IMG/VR virus record: IMGVR_UViG_2597490253_000007
Source of the DNA: a virus
Taxonomy: Duplodnaviria; Heunggongvirae; Uroviricota; Caudoviricetes
Reading direction: 5' to 3' (one strand)
DNA length: 4,864 nt
The position numbers were made by a program, and so were the translations under genes. How positions within the stretch are numbered: the first letter of the stretch is position 1; every line of letters starts with the position of its first letter. Below the pieces are notes generated by a model. That model was not told the DNA's origin. It worked only from the letters and a program-made list of their open reading frames with translations, and made no database searches. Of this stretch, positions 1 through 4,864 are shown in pieces.

Positions 1-921
1 ACCGGGCGTCCGGCCATGCTGCATATTTTCGAGCCGGTGGAGGACGGGCAGACCCGTGGGGCTAATCAGTTTTACAGCGTCATGGAACGGCTGAAGATGC
101 TCGATTCCCTGCAGGCAACACAGCTTCAGTCGGCCATAGTGAAGGCGATGTATGCAGCGACGATTGAAAGTGAACTTGATACCGAAAAGGCCTTTGAATA
201 TATCGCCGGCGCGCCACAGGAGCAGAAGGATAATCCGCTTATTAATATTCTGGAGAAGTTTTCCAGCTGGTATGACACGAATAACGTGACACTGGGCGGT
301 GTCAAAATTCCGCACCTTTTCCCTGGTGATGATCTGAAACTACAGACTGCGCAGGATTCAGACAATGGATTTTCTGCGCTTGAACAGGCGCTGCTGCGGT
401 ATATCGCCGCCGGTCTTGGCGTTTCCTACGAACAGTTGTCCCGTGATTACTCGAAGGTCAGTTACTCAAGTGCCCGCGCCTCCGCCAATGAGTCGTGGCG
501 CTATTTTATGGGGCGGCGAAAATTTATTGCGGCCCGGCTGGCCACGCAGATGTTTTCCTGCTGGCTGGAAGAGGCACTTCTTCGGGGGATTATTCGTCCG
601 CCACGGGCACGTTTTGATTTTTATCAGGCGCGATCAGCCTGGTCACGGGCAGAGTGGATTGGTGCCGGAAGAATGGCCATTGACGGGCTCAAGGAAGTCC
701 AGGAATCAGTGATGCGCATTGAGGCCGGACTGAGCACGTATGAGAAAGAGCTGGCGCTGATGGGCGAGGATTATCAGGACATTTTCCGCCAGCAGGTCAG
801 GGAATCTGCTGAGCGGCAAAAAGCCGGACTCTCACGTCCGGTGTGGATAGAGCAGGCGTATCAGCAGCAGATAGCGGAGAGTCGTAGGCCGGAAGAGGAG
901 ACAACACCACGTGAGACGTAA
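1..921 (+). CDS. B: Phage portal protein, lambda gpB-like; C-terminal part only, 5' end lies upstream of the window
   Basis: Open frame runs from position 1 (codons 1-15 ACC GGG CGT CCG GCC carry no stop) to TAA at 919-921. It sits immediately upstream of the C-D-E homologs, as in lambda. Assignment to the lambda portal family is by gene order and recollection, not a search. The ORF-track start at 16 is only the first Met in the window. Confidence 0.85.
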   Translation, partial: TGRPAMLHIFEPVEDGQTRGANQFYSVMERLKMLDSLQATQLQSAIVKAMYAATIESELDTEKAFEYIAGAPQEQKDNPLINILEKFSSWYDTNNVTLGGVKIPHLFPGDDLKLQTAQDSDNGFSALEQALLRYIAAGLGVSYEQLSRDYSKVSYSSARASANESWRYFMGRRKFIAARLATQMFSCWLEEALLRGIIRPPRARFDFYQARSAWSRAEWIGAGRMAIDGLKEVQESVMRIEAGLSTYEKELALMGEDYQDIFRQQVRESAERQKAGLSRPVWIEQAYQQQIAESRRPEEETTPRET

Positions 922-3055
922 TCTTTCACACATTATTGCCGCAGCATTCAATGAACCGCTGCTTCTGGAGCCCGCCTATGCGCGGGTTTTCTTTTGCGCG
1001 CTCGGGCGCGAGATGGGGGCAGCAAGTCTTTCGGTACCACAACAGCAGGTACAGTTTGATGCTCCCGGAATGCTGGCTGAAACGGACGAGTACATGGCCG
1101 GAGGTAAACGACCGGCCCGTGTTTACCGGGTGGTGAACGGTATTGCTGTACTGCCGGTGACCGGCACGCTGGTGCACCGGCTGGGTGGTATGCGGCCATT
1201 TTCCGGAATGACAGGCTATGACGGCATTGTCGCCTGTCTTCAGCAGGCAATGGCGGATAGCCAGGTGCGGGGCGTACTGCTGGACATTGACAGTCCGGGC
1301 GGGCAGGCCGCCGGCGCGTTTGACTGCGCTGACATGATTTACCGCCTCCGTCAGCAGAAGCCGGTCTGGGCACTGTGCAATGACACGGCCTGTTCTGCAG
1401 CCATGCTGCTGGCGTCGGCCTGCTCCCGACGGCTGGTTACCCAGACATCCCGTATCGGCTCCATTGGCGTGATGATGAGCCATGTCAGCTATGCCGGTCA
1501 TCTGGCGCAGGCCGGTGTGGATATCACGCTGATTTACTCAGGGGCGCACAAGGTGGATGGCAATCAGTTTGAAGCGTTGCCGGCAGAGGTTCGCCAGGAC
1601 ATGCAGCAGCGGATTGATGCGGCGCGCCGGATGTTTGCCGAAAAAGTGGCGATGTTTACCGGTCTGTCTGTTGATGCCGTCACGGGAACAGAGGCTGCCG
1701 TTTTTGAAGGTCAGTCCGGCATTGAGGCCGGGCTGGCGGATGAATTAATCAATGCGTCGGATGCCATCAGTGTGATGGCCACGGCGCTGAACAGTAATGT
1801 CAGAGGAGGCACTATGCCGCAATTAACTGCAACGGAAGCCGCCGCGCAGGAGAACCAGCGAGTGATGGGGATCCTGACATGCCAGGAAGCGAAAGGACGT
1901 GAACAGCTTGCCACGATGCTGGCAGGACAACAGGGCATGAGCGTTGAACAGGCCCGGGCGATTCTGGCCGCGGCGGCACCGCAGCAGCCGGTGGCATCCA
2001 CGCAGAGTGAAGCCGATCGCATTATGGTGTGTGAAGAAGCGAACGGTCGTGAACAACTGGCGGCAACGCTGGCGGCGATGCCGGAGATGACGGTGGAAAC
2101 AGCCCGCCCGATCCTGGCTGCTTCACCGCAGGCGGATGCCGGACCATCACTCCGTGATCAGATCATGGCACTGGATGAGGCAAAAGGGGCTGAGGCGCAG
2201 GCTGAACAGCTGGCTGCCTGCCCGGGAATGACAGTGGAGAGCGCCCGGGCTGTGCTGGCTTCGGGATCAGGTAAGGCAGAACCGGTCTCTGCATCCACAA
2301 CCGCCANNNNNNNNNNAGTCACGGGAACAGAGGCCGCTGTTTTTGAAGGTCAGTCCGGCATTGAGGCCGGGCTGGCGGATGAATTAATCAATGCGTCGGA
2401 TGCCATCAGTGTGATGGCCACGGCGCTGAACAGTAATGTCAGAGGAGGCACTATGCCGCAATTAACTGCAACGGAAGCCGCCGTGCAGGAGAACCAGCGA
2501 GTGATGGGGATCCTGACATGCCAGGAAGCGAAAGGACGTGAACAGCTTGCCACGATGCTGGCAGGGCAACAGGGCATGAGCGTTGAACAGGCCCGGGCGA
2601 TTCTGGCCGCGGCGGCACCGCAGCAGCCGGTGGCATCCGCGCAGAGTGAAGCCGATCGCATTATGGCGTGTGAAGAAGCGAACGGTCGTGAACAACTGGC
2701 GGCAACGCTGGCGGCGATGCCGGAGATGACGGTGGAAAAAGCCCGCCCGATCCTGGCGGCTGCACCACTGGCGGATGCCGGGCCCTCGCTTCGTGATCAG
2801 ATCATGGCCCTGGATGAGGCAAAAGGGGCAGAAGCGCAGGCTGAAAAACTGGCGGCCTGCCCGGGAATGACCGTGGAGAACGCCCGGGCTGTGCTGGCTG
2901 CGGGATCAGGTAAGGCCGAACCGGTCTCTGCATCCACAACCGCCCTGTTTGAACATTTCATGGCGAATCATTCACCGGCAGCGGTGCGGGGTGGCGTGTC
3001 ACAGACGTCAGCAGACGGTGATGCGGACGTGAAAATGCTCATGGCCATGCCATGA
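911..3055 (+). CDS. C: Prohead (head maturation) protease, lambda gpC-like, S49/ClpP-like family, with C-terminal scaffold region; as assembled 714 aa, but interrupted by an N-gap and an in-frame 213-codon duplication, so true length is uncertain (possibly about 501 aa)
   Basis: GTG start at 911 overlaps the portal stop by 11 nt, comparable to the B/C overlap in lambda, with GAAGAGGAG at 891-899 as a possible RBS. The N-terminus (RRNLSHIIAAAFNEPLLLEPAYARVFFCAL) closely matches what I recall of lambda gpC. Likely S49 serine nucleophile context is DTACSAAMLLASA, with a conserved HKVDGN segment downstream. Stop TGA at 3053-3055. The frame passes through N(10) at 2307-2316, which is why the track shows XXXX. 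Confidence 0.85.
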   Translation: MRRNLSHIIAAAFNEPLLLEPAYARVFFCALGREMGAASLSVPQQQVQFDAPGMLAETDEYMAGGKRPARVYRVVNGIAVLPVTGTLVHRLGGMRPFSGMTGYDGIVACLQQAMADSQVRGVLLDIDSPGGQAAGAFDCADMIYRLRQQKPVWALCNDTACSAAMLLASACSRRLVTQTSRIGSIGVMMSHVSYAGHLAQAGVDITLIYSGAHKVDGNQFEALPAEVRQDMQQRIDAARRMFAEKVAMFTGLSVDAVTGTEAAVFEGQSGIEAGLADELINASDAISVMATALNSNVRGGTMPQLTATEAAAQENQRVMGILTCQEAKGREQLATMLAGQQGMSVEQARAILAAAAPQQPVASTQSEADRIMVCEEANGREQLAATLAAMPEMTVETARPILAASPQADAGPSLRDQIMALDEAKGAEAQAEQLAACPGMTVESARAVLASGSGKAEPVSASTTAXXXXVTGTEAAVFEGQSGIEAGLADELINASDAISVMATALNSNVRGGTMPQLTATEAAVQENQRVMGILTCQEAKGREQLATMLAGQQGMSVEQARAILAAAAPQQPVASAQSEADRIMACEEANGREQLAATLAAMPEMTVEKARPILAAAPLADAGPSLRDQIMALDEAKGAEAQAEKLAACPGMTVENARAVLAAGSGKAEPVSASTTALFEHFMANHSPAAVRGGVSQTSADGDADVKMLMAMP
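1679..2306 (+). repeat. Direct repeat copy 1 (628 bp), ending at the N-gap
   Basis: Sequence from gtcacgggaacagagg... to ...gcatccacaaccgcca recurs at 2318-2945 with about 25 nt differences by eye (~96% identity). Confidence 0.9.
1814..3055 (+). CDS. Putative nested scaffolding protein, lambda Nu3-like, translated in-frame from an internal start within the C-like gene and co-terminal with it; length inflated by the duplication
   Basis: Strong Shine-Dalgarno AGGAGG at 1804-1809, 4 nt upstream of ATG 1814 (MPQLTATEAA...), in the same frame as C. In lambda, Nu3 is encoded in-frame within the 3' part of C and shares its stop. The downstream sequence is Ala/Glu/Gln-rich and repetitive, typical of scaffold proteins. 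An identical RBS+ATG recurs at 2443-2448 / 2453 in the second repeat copy. Confidence 0.5.
   Translation: MPQLTATEAAAQENQRVMGILTCQEAKGREQLATMLAGQQGMSVEQARAILAAAAPQQPVASTQSEADRIMVCEEANGREQLAATLAAMPEMTVETARPILAASPQADAGPSLRDQIMALDEAKGAEAQAEQLAACPGMTVESARAVLASGSGKAEPVSASTTAXXXXVTGTEAAVFEGQSGIEAGLADELINASDAISVMATALNSNVRGGTMPQLTATEAAVQENQRVMGILTCQEAKGREQLATMLAGQQGMSVEQARAILAAAAPQQPVASAQSEADRIMACEEANGREQLAATLAAMPEMTVEKARPILAAAPLADAGPSLRDQIMALDEAKGAEAQAEKLAACPGMTVENARAVLAAGSGKAEPVSASTTALFEHFMANHSPAAVRGGVSQTSADGDADVKMLMAMP
2307..2316. other. Assembly gap (10 N) inside the C/Nu3-like coding region
   Basis: Run of n characters in the sequence; the flanks are near-identical to each other. Confidence 0.98.
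2318..2945 (+). repeat. Direct repeat copy 2 (628 bp), starting right after the N-gap
   Basis: Near-identical to 1679-2306 at an offset of exactly 639 bp (213 codons), so the reading frame is preserved. Differences are a mix of synonymous and nonsynonymous changes, concentrated in the 3' two thirds. Confidence 0.9.
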
Positions 3056-3091
3056 AGTCAGTGCTGACCATCAATATGAGGTTTTAACAAA

Positions 3092-3439
3092 ATGGTGACG
3101 AAAACCATCACTGAACAGCGTGCGGAAGTACGTATTTTTGCCGGTAATGATCCGGCTCATACCGCCACAGGCAGCAGCGGGATTTCTTCTGCAACACCGG
3201 CTCTGACGCCCCTGATGCTGGATGAAGCCACCGGGAAACTGGTGGTCTGGGATGGACAGAAAGCCGGTAGTGCGGTTGGCATACTGGTACTGCCGCTTGA
3301 AGGCACAGAGACGGTGCTGACCTATTACAAGTCGGGGACCTTTGCGACGGAGGCAATCCGCTGGCCTGACAGTGTGGATGAACACAAAAAGGCAAATGCC
3401 TTTGCCGGCACAGCCCTGAGTCACGCGGCTCTGCCGTAA
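3092..3439 (+). CDS. D: Head decoration protein, lambda gpD-like (115 aa)
   Basis: ATG at 3092 with GAGG at 3078-3081 as RBS; stop TAA 3437-3439. Size is close to lambda gpD (~110 aa). Segments such as DPAHTATG, TPLMLD, WDG, AVGIL, YKSGTF and AFAGTA match my recollection of gpD. Position between C and E is as in lambda. Confidence 0.9.
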   Translation: MVTKTITEQRAEVRIFAGNDPAHTATGSSGISSATPALTPLMLDEATGKLVVWDGQKAGSAVGILVLPLEGTETVLTYYKSGTFATEAIRWPDSVDEHKKANAFAGTALSHAALP

Positions 3440-3447
3440 CACGTTAT

Positions 3448-3467
3448 CAGGCCACCATGGTGGCCTG
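3448..3467. promoter_or_regulatory. Perfect 20-bp palindrome (CAGGCCACCATGGTGGCCTG) in the D-E intergenic region; possible RNA stem-loop or dimeric protein-binding site
   Basis: Exact reverse-complement symmetry read directly from the sequence, 9 nt after the D stop and about 30 nt before the E start. It is followed by ACTGATTTCTG, which is only weakly U-rich. Confidence 0.4.
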
Positions 3468-3496
3468 ACTGATTTCTGAATGAAAGGAACTGATTT

Positions 3497-4525
3497 ATGG
3501 GATTGTTTACGACCCGCCAGTTACTCGGTTATACCGAACAAAAAGTGAAATTCCGTGCGCTGTTTCTGGAGCTGTTTTTCCGCCGTACGGTGAATTTCCA
3601 CACCGAAGAGGTGATGCTGGACAAAATTACCGGAAAAACGCCGGTGGCGGCCTATGTCTCCCCGATCGTTGAAGGAAAAGTGCTTCGCCATCGCGGTGGT
3701 GAAACCCGCGTGTTACGTCCGGGCTACGTCAAGCCGAAACACGAATTTAATTACCAGCAGGCGGTTGAGCGCCTTCCTGGTGAAGATCCGGCTCAGCTGA
3801 ACGACCCGGCCTACCGTCGTCTGCGTATCATTACCGATAACCTCAAACAGGAAGAGCACGCCATTGTCCAGGTGGAAGAAATGCAGGCGGTGAATGCCGT
3901 GCTGTATGGCAAATACACCATGGAAGGGGATCAGTTTGATACTGTCGAGGTGGATTTCGGGCGCTCTGAAGGAAATAACATTGAGCAGGCTGACGGTAAA
4001 AAATGGTCTGAGCAGGACCGTGATACGTTTGATCCGACGCATGATATTGACCTCTACTGCGATCAGGCCAGCGGCCTTGTGAATATCGCCATTATGGACG
4101 GTACGGTCTGGCGTCTGCTGAATGGCTTTAAGCTGTTCCGCGAAAAACTGGATACCCGTCGCGGCTCAAATTCACAACTCGAAACGGCAGTGAAAGATCT
4201 GGGCGCAGTGGTGTCCTTCAAGGGGTATTACGGCGATCTGGCCATTGTGGTGGCGAAAACGTCTTATGTGGCAGAGGACGGTACCGAAAAACGTTATCTG
4301 CCGGAGGGCATGCTGGTGTTGGGGAATACGGCGGCAGAGGGGATTCGTTGCTATGGTGCCATTAAGGATGCACAGGCGTTGTCTGAAGGAGTGGTGGCTT
4401 CTTCCCGTTACCCGAAACACTGGCTGACCGTGGGCGATCCGTCCTGTGAATTCACCATGACGCAGTCCGCTCCGCTGATGGTGCTGCCGGATCCGGATGA
4501 GTTTGTGGTGGTACAGGTGAAATAA
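3497..4525 (+). CDS. E: Major capsid protein, lambda gpE-like (342 aa)
   Basis: ATG at 3497 with AAGGA at 3484-3488 as RBS; stop TAA 4523-4525. Length (342 aa) is about that of lambda gpE, and many segments (YVSPIV, PGYVKPKHE, DPAYRR, VEEMQAV, KLDTRRGSNS, LETAVKDLG, MVLGNT, TMTQSAPLM, PDPDEF) match my recollection of gpE. Confidence 0.95.
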   Translation: MGLFTTRQLLGYTEQKVKFRALFLELFFRRTVNFHTEEVMLDKITGKTPVAAYVSPIVEGKVLRHRGGETRVLRPGYVKPKHEFNYQQAVERLPGEDPAQLNDPAYRRLRIITDNLKQEEHAIVQVEEMQAVNAVLYGKYTMEGDQFDTVEVDFGRSEGNNIEQADGKKWSEQDRDTFDPTHDIDLYCDQASGLVNIAIMDGTVWRLLNGFKLFREKLDTRRGSNSQLETAVKDLGAVVSFKGYYGDLAIVVAKTSYVAEDGTEKRYLPEGMLVLGNTAAEGIRCYGAIKDAQALSEGVVASSRYPKHWLTVGDPSCEFTMTQSAPLMVLPDPDEFVVVQVK

Positions 4526-4533
4526 TCCGTGAG

Positions 4534-4562
4534 CGGGGGCGAAATGCCCCCGTGTCTTTTTT
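4534..4562 (+). terminator. Putative rho-independent terminator (or partial terminator/attenuator) between E and FI
   Basis: GC-rich hairpin CGGGGGC (4534-4540), loop GAAAT, GCCCCCG (4546-4552), followed by TGTC and then TTTTTT at 4557-4562, beginning 9 nt after the E stop codon. Confidence 0.6.
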
Positions 4563-4576
4563 CACAGGAGGCTGAG

Positions 4577-4864
4577 ATGGCAACAAAAGAAGAAAATCTG
4601 AATCGTCTTCGTCAACTGGCTGACCTGCTGGGGCGCGAGGCGGATATGTCGGGGAGTGCTGCGGATATTGCTCAACGTGTGTCTGAGTGGGAAGAGGAGC
4701 TTGCTGTTTCCCCGGAGGGCATTATGCACTCTGATGAGAGCGGGGCTGATCAAAATCACACAGACGATGGTGAGCAGTTGAACAACACGGATGCTCCGGA
4801 TGATGTTAAAGCCGTCCGGGTACGGAAGTGCCTGCAAGTAATGGGGTATTGCCCGGAGACAGGT
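4577..4864 (+). CDS. FI: FI-like DNA-packaging/head assembly protein, N-terminal part (3' end beyond the window)
   Basis: ATG at 4577 preceded by AGGAGG at 4566-4571 (5-nt spacing); open for 96 codons to the window end. The N-terminus MATKEENLNRLRQLADLLGRE...AQRVSEWEEEL resembles what I recall of lambda gpFI, and the gene follows E as in lambda. Absent from the ORF track because no stop falls within the window. Confidence 0.6.
   Translation, partial: MATKEENLNRLRQLADLLGREADMSGSAADIAQRVSEWEEELAVSPEGIMHSDESGADQNHTDDGEQLNNTDAPDDVKAVRVRKCLQVMGYCPETG

What the first reader, a model, noticed from the sequence alone, without database searches (positions are those of the whole stretch)
1862..2306. 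Three tandem degenerate ~47-aa motifs in the scaffold region of the C-like protein
Within one copy of the large repeat, the protein contains three successive units sharing the pattern [hydrophobic]-x-E-A-(K/N)-G-x-E-Q-L-A-x-x-L-A-x-x-P/Q-G/E-M-(S/T)-V-E-x-A-R-x-(I/V)-L-A-A. They begin at about nt 1862 (MGILTCQEAKGREQLATMLAGQQGMSVEQARAILAAA), 2021 (IMVCEEANGREQLAATLAAMPEMTVETARPILAAS) and 2162 (IMALDEAKGAEAQAEQLAACPGMTVESARAVLASG). As far as I recall, the lambda C/Nu3 region carries this motif only once, so the module looks expanded here. Six copies are present as assembled (again at 2501-2945). Repeat number in a scaffold protein could plausibly affect capsid assembly, and such internal repeats would also make the region hard to assemble.
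Basis: partly seen in the sequence, partly recalled or inferred. Interest (0 to 1): 0.5.

Follow-up and report, generated by a model that had tools for sequence, protein, structure and literature searches.

The report
Phage 21 scaffold "Tri box" repeats
The three repeats are real, but they are the "Tri boxes" already annotated in the head protease/scaffold gene of coliphage 21, a very common E. coli prophage gene, and the apparent six copies are an assembly artefact.

Summary
The protein read from 911 carries three significantly similar units of about 40 aa, spaced 47-50 aa apart, at nt 1868-1981, 2018-2128 and 2159-2269.

It is not new. Window 1-2306 is 99.9% identical to coliphage 21. GenBank M81255 annotates the same three stretches in gene 6, the Nu3 homologue, as "Tri1 box", "Tri box" and "Tri3 box", function unknown.

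One unit is also the norm: 137 of the best 150 representative clusters have one, 9 have two and 3 have three. The three-unit gene occurs in about a third of complete E. coli genomes. A four-unit variant occurs in about 2%.

The "six copies" are an artefact. Two 95.9%-identical alleles of the same 628 nt flank a 10-N gap. In finished genomes both map onto a single copy.

The units share only 55-63% DNA identity, with third codon positions at 36-39%. This is an old duplication kept at protein level, and it cannot itself break assemblies.

AlphaFold predicts each unit as a small three-helix bundle on flexible linkers. I infer a multivalent protein-binding module shared by protease and scaffold. 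That function is untested.

The parts
16..921 (+). 3' part of the portal gene (lambda B / phage 21 gene 4 homologue); context
   Evidence: Pfam Phage_portal_2 E=2.8e-49; annotated portal in phage 21 records
911..2306 (+). Phage 21 gene 5 homologue (lambda C-like S49 head protease fused in frame to the scaffold region), cut by the contig end at 2306. The true protein is 501 aa; its last 36 codons are at 2945-3055.
   Evidence: 99.8% nt identity to M81255/OL657228 over all 1396 nt. Peptidase_S49 at aa 146-293, E=1.3e-34. The reconstructed 501-aa protein differs from phage 21 gp5 at 6 residues.
1814..2306 (+). Nested in-frame gene 6 (lambda Nu3-like scaffold, 200 aa). ATG at 1814, preceded by the Shine-Dalgarno sequence AGAGGAGG at 1802-1809.
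   Evidence: Sequence. The start and RBS are annotated at the equivalent positions in M81255 and OL657228.
1868..1981 (+). Unit 1 (= Tri1 box, annotated at the equivalent of window 1881-1984): GILTCQEAKGREQLATMLAGQQGMSVEQARAILAAAAP
   Evidence: HMM domain aa 320-357; Tri1 box annotation; predicted three helices, pLDDT about 80-84
2018..2128 (+). Unit 2 (= Tri box, window 2021-2131): RIMVCEEANGREQLAATLAAMPEMTVETARPILAASP
   Evidence: HMM domain aa 370-406; annotation
2159..2269 (+). Unit 3 (= Tri3 box, window 2162-2275): QIMALDEAKGAEAQAEQLAACPGMTVESARAVLASGS. This is the most degenerate unit (the conserved GRE is GAE here).
   Evidence: HMM domain aa 417-453; annotation
2307..2316 (.). Run of 10 N: a scaffold gap between two contigs
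   Evidence: Sequence
2318..2945 (+). Second allele of the same 628 nt (repeat of 1679-2306, 95.9% identity), carrying units 1'-3' at 2507-2620, 2657-2767 and 2798-2908. This is an overlapping contig end, not a real duplication.
   Evidence: Alignment, 26 mismatches, 20 of them in the last 228 nt. The left side is 99.9% phage 21; the right side is 99.5% phage 204576 and about 93% to the listed phage-21-type relatives (ev017, 4A7). Both copies map to one 962-nt span in finished genomes.
2946..3055 (+). C-terminal tail of gene 5/6 after the last unit (LFEHFMANHSPAAV...DADVKMLMAMP) and the stop codon
   Evidence: ORF; alignment to phage 21 gp5; two short predicted helices at low confidence
3092..3439 (+). 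Head decoration protein gene (lambda D / phage 21 shp homologue); context
   Evidence: Pfam HDPD E=5.7e-25
3497..4525 (+). Major capsid protein gene (lambda E / phage 21 gene 7 homologue); context
   Evidence: Pfam Phage_cap_E E=1.8e-65

Best explanation
The window is the head-gene block of a phage-21-type lambdoid prophage of E. coli: portal, C/Nu3-like protease-scaffold, D-like, E-like, FI-like. The three units are the 'Tri boxes' of phage 21 genes 5/6. They are three diverged tandem copies of a ~40-aa module that is present once in lambda C/Nu3 and in most lambda-type head modules.

Shown:
- The triplication is old and maintained at protein level.
- It lies in the C-terminal region shared by the full-length protease (gp5/C) and the internally initiated scaffold (gp6/Nu3).
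- Copy number differs between lineages: 1, 2, 3 or 4.

Predicted: each unit folds on its own into a small three-helix bundle, and the units are joined by flexible Pro/Gln/Ala-rich linkers.

Inferred, not shown: the unit is a protein-protein interaction module. Through it, scaffold and protease would associate with each other and/or with the inner surface of the assembling shell or the portal. Three units would make that contact multivalent. The whole region would be removed by the protease before DNA packaging, as in lambda.

The apparent six units result from two overlapping contig ends, from two prophage alleles, joined across a 10-N gap.
For: Identity:
- 99.8-99.9% nt identity to phage 21.
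- The Tri1/Tri/Tri3 repeat_region annotation coincides with the units.
- Synteny and Pfam domains fit.
- The nested start with its RBS is present.

Repeat reality: z = 11-16 against shuffles; three HMM domains; three hits each to single-unit PHROG scaffold profiles.

Protein-level selection and age: identity at codon positions 1 and 2 is 67-79%, against 36-39% at position 3. DNA identity is 55-63%.

Expansion relative to the norm:
- Lambda has one unit.
- Of the 150 best representative clusters, 137 have one unit, 9 have two and 3 have three. Of 52 full-length proteins (at least 380 aa), 50 have one.

Copy-number dynamics:
- A four-unit variant is colinear in 104 of 5426 complete E. coli genomes.
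- Two-unit variants have in-register junctions.
- A distant lineage with the same head module has an independent two-unit form.

Lambda Nu3 is reported to interact with itself, C, B and E (PMC3224144).

Artefact.
Against: - The function of the unit is untested. The GenBank record itself says 'function unknown; putative'.
- No solved structure or named family covers the unit.
- The binding partner cannot be inferred from context, because the unit always travels with the whole lambda-type head module.
- The capsid-targeting element could instead be the C-terminal tail after the units.
- Lambda and phage 21 have MCPs of the same family and near-equal length (341 vs 342 aa). Both build T=7 heads (from memory, not tested here). 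Unit number therefore has no obvious effect on capsid geometry.
Confidence: 0.85

Rival explanations
1. The gene really carries six units, through a genuine 639-bp tandem duplication in this strain.
For: As assembled, the reading frame stays open across the N run, giving a 714-aa ORF.
Against: The two copies are separated by exactly a 10-N scaffold gap. They differ at 26 of 628 positions, like two alleles. The left flank is 99.9% phage 21. The right flank is 99.5% phage 204576 and about 93% to the listed phage-21-type relatives (ev017, 4A7). In all listed best hits among 1870 matching complete genomes, both copies map onto one 962-nt span. Genomes carry up to 5 related copies, which explains contig breaks.
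Confidence: 0.03
2. The 'Tri boxes' act at the DNA or RNA level, for example as binding sites or structures, rather than as protein repeats.
For: They are annotated as DNA repeat_regions in M81255. OL657228 marks pattern matches to CII sites inside the gene.
Against: DNA identity between units is only 55-63%, with exact runs of at most 8 nt. The repeat finder and TRF do not detect them. Third codon positions are near saturation (36-39%) while positions 1 and 2 are 67-79% identical. The protein motif is conserved in 1836 clusters across distant lineages.
Confidence: 0.03
3. The units are folded but functionally passive. They would act as spacer or bulk that sets the length or volume of the scaffold, or as protease substrate, and copy number would drift neutrally through unequal recombination.
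For: Copy number varies from 1 to 4 among closely related prophages with the same MCP family. Phage 21 gp6 is 200 aa and lambda Nu3 is 201 aa although they have 3 and 1 units. Lambda fills the difference with a low-complexity leader.
Against: The exposed EAKGRE turn and the hydrophobic core positions are nearly invariant across very distant lineages. That conservation is hard to explain for a mere spacer. At least one unit is always retained.
Confidence: 0.2
4. The similarity is compositional: Ala/Glu/Gln-rich low complexity rather than true repeats.
For: The region is Ala-rich.
Against: Composition-preserving shuffles never reach the observed scores (0 of 2000, z 11-16). The profile has six invariant and five nearly invariant columns in a fixed register.
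Confidence: 0.01

Closest known systems
Coliphage 21 genes 5 and 6 (head protease / scaffold) with Tri1, Tri and Tri3 boxes. GenBank M81255 and OL657228. From memory, described by Smith & Feiss, Gene 1993; that paper could not be read here.
   Same: 99.8-99.9% nucleotide identity. Same gene order, same nested start, and the same three repeat units at the same positions.
   Different: Six amino-acid substitutions in allele A and eleven in allele B. The window is a draft-assembly scaffold with a gap and an overlapping second allele.
Lambda C (S49 prohead protease) and nested Nu3 scaffold
   Same: Same S49 domain, same nested-gene arrangement and same head module. Unit 1 is 28/45 identical to the single lambda unit.
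   Different: Lambda has one unit plus a long low-complexity leader. Phage 21 has three units and a short leader. Total scaffold length is nearly the same, 201 vs 200 aa.
Four-unit and two-unit variants in E. coli and Salmonella prophages (for example P0028; Gifsy-1 type with three units)
   Same: Same module in the same gene and the same head operon.
   Different: Copy number is 2 or 4. Units 2-4 of the four-unit form are much more alike than the phage 21 units, which suggests more recent expansion.
P22 scaffolding protein C-terminal helix-turn-helix coat-binding domain (analogy by function only; from general knowledge)
   Same: A small helical module at the C-terminal end of a scaffold. Its assumed role here is contact with the shell.
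   Different: No sequence similarity to any PDB chain. The fold is predicted as three helices, not two. The module is repeated, and the scaffold is removed by proteolysis.
UBA-like / RuvA domain III three-helix bundles
   Different: The scores are too weak and too generic to indicate homology. Sequence identity is 2-20%.

Membership tests
Phage 21 gp5/gp6 (lambda C/Nu3-type protease-scaffold) with Tri boxes | Near-identical sequence to the phage 21 reference | tested here: met
   99.8% over 1396 nt and 99.9% over 2306 nt
Phage 21 gp5/gp6 (lambda C/Nu3-type protease-scaffold) with Tri boxes | N-terminal S49 (SppA-type) peptidase domain | tested here: met
   PF01343 E=1.3e-34, 119.8 bits against a cutoff of 24.9; TIGR00706 domain similarity below cutoff
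Phage 21 gp5/gp6 (lambda C/Nu3-type protease-scaffold) with Tri boxes | In-frame internal start with its own RBS, giving a ~200-aa scaffold that shares the C-terminus | tested here: met
   AGAGGAGG-N4-ATG at 1802-1816; same position annotated in M81255 and OL657228. Expression was not tested.
Phage 21 gp5/gp6 (lambda C/Nu3-type protease-scaffold) with Tri boxes | Three tandem Tri units in the scaffold part | tested here: met
   Three HMM domains that coincide with the annotated Tri1/Tri/Tri3 boxes once the coordinate offset of 1590 is applied
Phage 21 gp5/gp6 (lambda C/Nu3-type protease-scaffold) with Tri boxes | Position between the lambda-type portal gene and the D-like and E-like genes | tested here: met
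   Pfam Phage_portal_2, HDPD and Phage_cap_E on the neighbouring ORFs
Helix-hairpin-helix motif (Pfam PF00633) | Score above the Pfam gathering threshold | tested here: not met
   13 bits against a cutoff of 24, E=0.098, in unit 3 only
UBA-like three-helix bundle superfamily | Significant structural similarity to solved members | tested here: inconclusive
P22-type scaffold coat-binding helix-turn-helix | Sequence or fold relationship to the P22 gp8 C-terminal domain | tested here: not met
Scaffold function (binds MCP or portal, removed before packaging) | Physical interaction of the unit with capsid, portal or protease | not testable with these tools
   Only literature on whole lambda Nu3 is available: Nu3-Nu3, Nu3-C, Nu3-B and Nu3-E interactions (PMC3224144)

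The most novel reading that the evidence does not exclude
The ~40-aa unit is an unnamed, widespread three-helix domain of lambda-type scaffold/protease proteins. It occurs in at least 1836 clusters at 50% identity and has no Pfam or NCBIfam model. Its copy number (1, 2, 3 or 4) would be actively polymorphic among E. coli prophages through in-register unequal recombination. Copy number would tune the valency of scaffold-shell or scaffold-portal contacts, with measurable effects on assembly efficiency or on compatibility between mosaic head modules.
Probability: 0.2. Interest if true: 0.4.

Novelty: already known. Interest (0 to 1): 0.12.

Why it matters
It matters little as a discovery. The triplication has been annotated in the phage 21 GenBank record for decades, and the gene is in about a third of finished E. 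coli genomes.

There are two practical points:
- The 714-aa, six-unit ORF in this assembly should not be annotated as a protein. It is two prophage alleles joined across a gap.
- The unit has no curated family and no known function, although it is conserved across the lambda-type head module and varies in copy number. It is therefore a tractable target for anyone studying how the lambda-type scaffold and protease are recruited into the prohead.

Tried and rejected
- PDB sequence search with the 200-aa scaffold found only a chance hit at E=1.6.
- Foldseek of the whole scaffold model against the PDB found nothing at E<=0.001. This is expected for a beads-on-a-string model with pTM 0.28.
- The Pfam HHH hit in unit 3 is below threshold, so I rejected it.
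- NCBIfam has no model for the scaffold part.
- Literature searches for 'Tri box' and for the phage 21 head-gene paper found nothing in the held library. The 1993 reference is therefore cited from memory, and the GenBank annotation is the actual evidence.
- I tried to infer the binding partner from gene context. Distant one-unit and two-unit relatives sit in the same terminase-portal-S49-D-E module, so context does not discriminate. Stand-alone two-unit proteins (P0108, P0144) are on contigs under 1 kb, with no context.
- The repeat finder and TRF do not see the units at DNA level. This fits their divergence.
Full report
**What the window is.** The 4864-nt window encodes five genes in lambda head-gene order:
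- the 3' part of a lambda-family portal gene (16-921; Phage_portal_2, E=2.8e-49);
- a long ORF starting at 911 with an S49 peptidase domain (E=1.3e-34);
- a lambda D-like decoration gene (3092-3439);
- a lambda E-like major capsid gene (3497-4525);
- the start of an FI-like gene.

Window 911-2306 is 99.8% identical to coliphage 21, and window 1-2306 is 99.9% identical (M81255, OL657228).

**Check of the observation.** The three quoted peptides are in the ORF. Their cores start at nt 1871, 2021 and 2162, so the periods are 50 and 47 aa. Pairwise local alignment scores are 80-99, against shuffle means of 23-25. That gives z = 11-16, with 0 of 2000 shuffles reaching the observed score and 18-23 identities over 36-38 residues. 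A unit HMM finds three domains in the window protein (aa 320-357, 370-406, 417-453) and one in lambda C (aa 363-399). PHROG single-unit scaffold profiles are each hit three times. The repeats are real.

**The six copies are an artefact.**
- Positions 2307-2316 are ten N.
- The 628 nt before the gap (1679-2306) and after it (2318-2945) are the same stretch at 95.9% identity. There are 26 mismatches, 20 of them in the last 228 nt.
- The left side is 99.9% phage 21. The right side (2318-4864) is 99.5% identical to 'Escherichia phage 204576' and about 93% to the listed phage-21-type relatives such as ev017 and 4A7.
- When window 1500-3100 is searched against 5426 complete E. coli genomes, the best places cover 99% of the 1601-nt query in two pieces. 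They occupy only 962 nt of the record, which is exactly 1601 minus the 639-nt offset.

So two overlapping contig ends from two prophage alleles were joined across a gap. The frame stays open only because 639 is a multiple of 3. With either allele removed, the protein is 501 aa, as in phage 21.

**Already known.** GenBank M81255 (phage 21 head gene operon) carries three repeat_region features inside gene 6: 'Tri1 box', 'Tri box' and 'Tri3 box', each 'function unknown; putative'. With the ungapped offset of 1590 between locus and window, they fall at window 1881-1984, 2021-2131 and 2162-2275. The same records annotate gene 5 (the protease, a lambda C homologue, 501 aa) and the nested gene 6 (a Nu3 homologue, 200 aa). 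Gene 6 starts at the ATG at window 1814, behind AGAGGAGG. From memory, the record belongs to Smith & Feiss, Gene 1993. I could not find or read that paper in the held library.

**Is the module expanded relative to homologues?** Yes.
- Lambda C/Nu3 has one unit.
- A profile of 33 diverse units (A2) was searched against 1.84 billion representative proteins. It found 1836 clusters at E<=0.001.
- Re-scanning the best 150 for near-complete units gave 137 with one, 9 with two and 3 with three. Among 52 proteins of at least 380 aa (complete protease-scaffold fusions), 50 have one unit.
- In the phage collection, about 20 records carry the whole three-unit region. These are phage 21, ev017, 4A7, the PhiR12 group, and Gifsy-1 at 53% identity. 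About 90 records match only over one unit, including lambda, 434, N15, HK630 and phi80.
- The three-unit gene is nevertheless very common. It covers at least 80% of the query in 1816 of 5426 complete E. coli genomes, with up to five places per genome.
- A four-unit form (P0028) is colinear in 104 complete genomes.
- Two-unit forms have in-register junctions (P0013, P0018, P0022).
- A distant relative with the same head module has an independent two-unit form.

Copy number therefore changes by in-register recombination, and one unit is ancestral.

**Age and level of selection.** The units are 55-63% identical in DNA, with exact runs of at most 8 nt. The repeat finder and TRF do not detect them. 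Identity is 67-79% at codon positions 1 and 2 but 36-39% at position 3. The triplication is old and conserved as protein. It is not a DNA element, and it is too diverged to confuse an assembler. Contig breaks here are better explained by several related prophages per genome. Most database proteins of this family are annotated 'partial', which fits that explanation.

**How it most likely works.**
- Shown: the units lie in the region common to protease and scaffold, and at least one is retained in every lineage examined. The context is always the lambda-type module of terminase, portal, S49, D and E.
- From the literature: lambda C and Nu3 overlap in frame, gpC is the protease, and Nu3 interacts with itself, C, B and E (PMC3224144; references listed in PMC8508860).
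- Inferred: each unit is an autonomous small helical interaction domain on a flexible tether. The shared C-terminal region would bring both scaffold and protease into the prohead, and three units would make the contact multivalent.

I cannot tell whether the partner is the MCP, the portal, the protease domain or another scaffold molecule. I also cannot tell whether the C-terminal tail is the real targeting element instead. Phage 21 and lambda have MCPs of the same family and near-equal length (341 vs 342 aa). From memory, both build T=7 heads. Their scaffolds are almost equally long, 200 vs 201 aa. Unit number therefore does not obviously set capsid geometry.

**Verdict.** The feature is already annotated in phage 21 and is widespread in E. 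coli prophages. The six-copy count and the assembly argument are wrong. Interest is low. The only open point is the unknown function of a conserved, unnamed domain with variable copy number.

Noticed in passing
window 2307-2316 and flanks 1-2306 / 2318-4864: The scaffold gap joins two different prophage alleles. The left side is 99.9% phage 21. The right side is 99.5% 'Escherichia phage 204576' (CP025907) and about 93% to the listed phage-21-type relatives (ev017, 4A7). The 714-aa ORF across the gap is not a real protein.
   Followed up: yes
window 4533-4553 (+ T run to 4562): A strong terminator-like hairpin (9 pairs, 7 G-C, then TCTTTTTT) lies between the end of the major capsid gene (4525) and the FI-like start (4577), inside what should be one late operon.
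   Followed up: no
window 3447-3468: A perfect palindrome, TCAGGCCACCATGGTGGCCTGA, lies between the D-like and E-like genes. The consensus scan scored it as terminator-like.
   Followed up: no
L004:1-1043 (GCA_032727965.1 contig) and 104 complete E. coli genomes: A four-unit variant of the same scaffold module exists. Units 2-4 are much more alike than the phage 21 units. It is absent from the phage collection at megablast level.
   Followed up: partly
proteins P0013, P0018, P0022: Two-unit variants of the phage 21-type protein. Their junctions are in register between units, for example unit 1 N-part fused to unit 2 C-part in P0022. This points to unequal recombination between the diverged repeats. 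They could also be assembly collapses.
   Followed up: no
L001:2333-2938 (lambda nu3) vs window 1814-2305 + 2945-3055: Lambda Nu3 (201 aa) and phage 21 gp6 (200 aa) are almost the same length although they have 1 and 3 units. Lambda has a low-complexity leader of about 57 aa where phage 21 has 12 residues. The lambda tail 'ALDRLMQGAP' aligns with the start of unit 2 ('EADRIMVCEE') and may be a vestige of a second unit.
   Followed up: partly
one search hit list: Most database proteins matching the scaffold part are annotated 'partial'. Contigs therefore very often break inside this gene, which fits several related prophages per genome (up to 5 places per complete genome).
   Followed up: partly
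window 1819-1832 and 2053-2066 (minus strand; from OL657228 annotation): The phage 21 genome record marks two 'CII binding site' pattern matches (ttgynnnnnnttgy) inside gene 5/6, one of them within unit 2. These are pattern-based annotations only.
   Followed up: no
proteins P0133, P0125, P0118: Some database 'proteins' carrying the lambda unit are chimeras of lambda C with unrelated lambda segments (tape-measure-like, portal-like, J-like). They probably come from vector or misassembled sequences.
   Followed up: no
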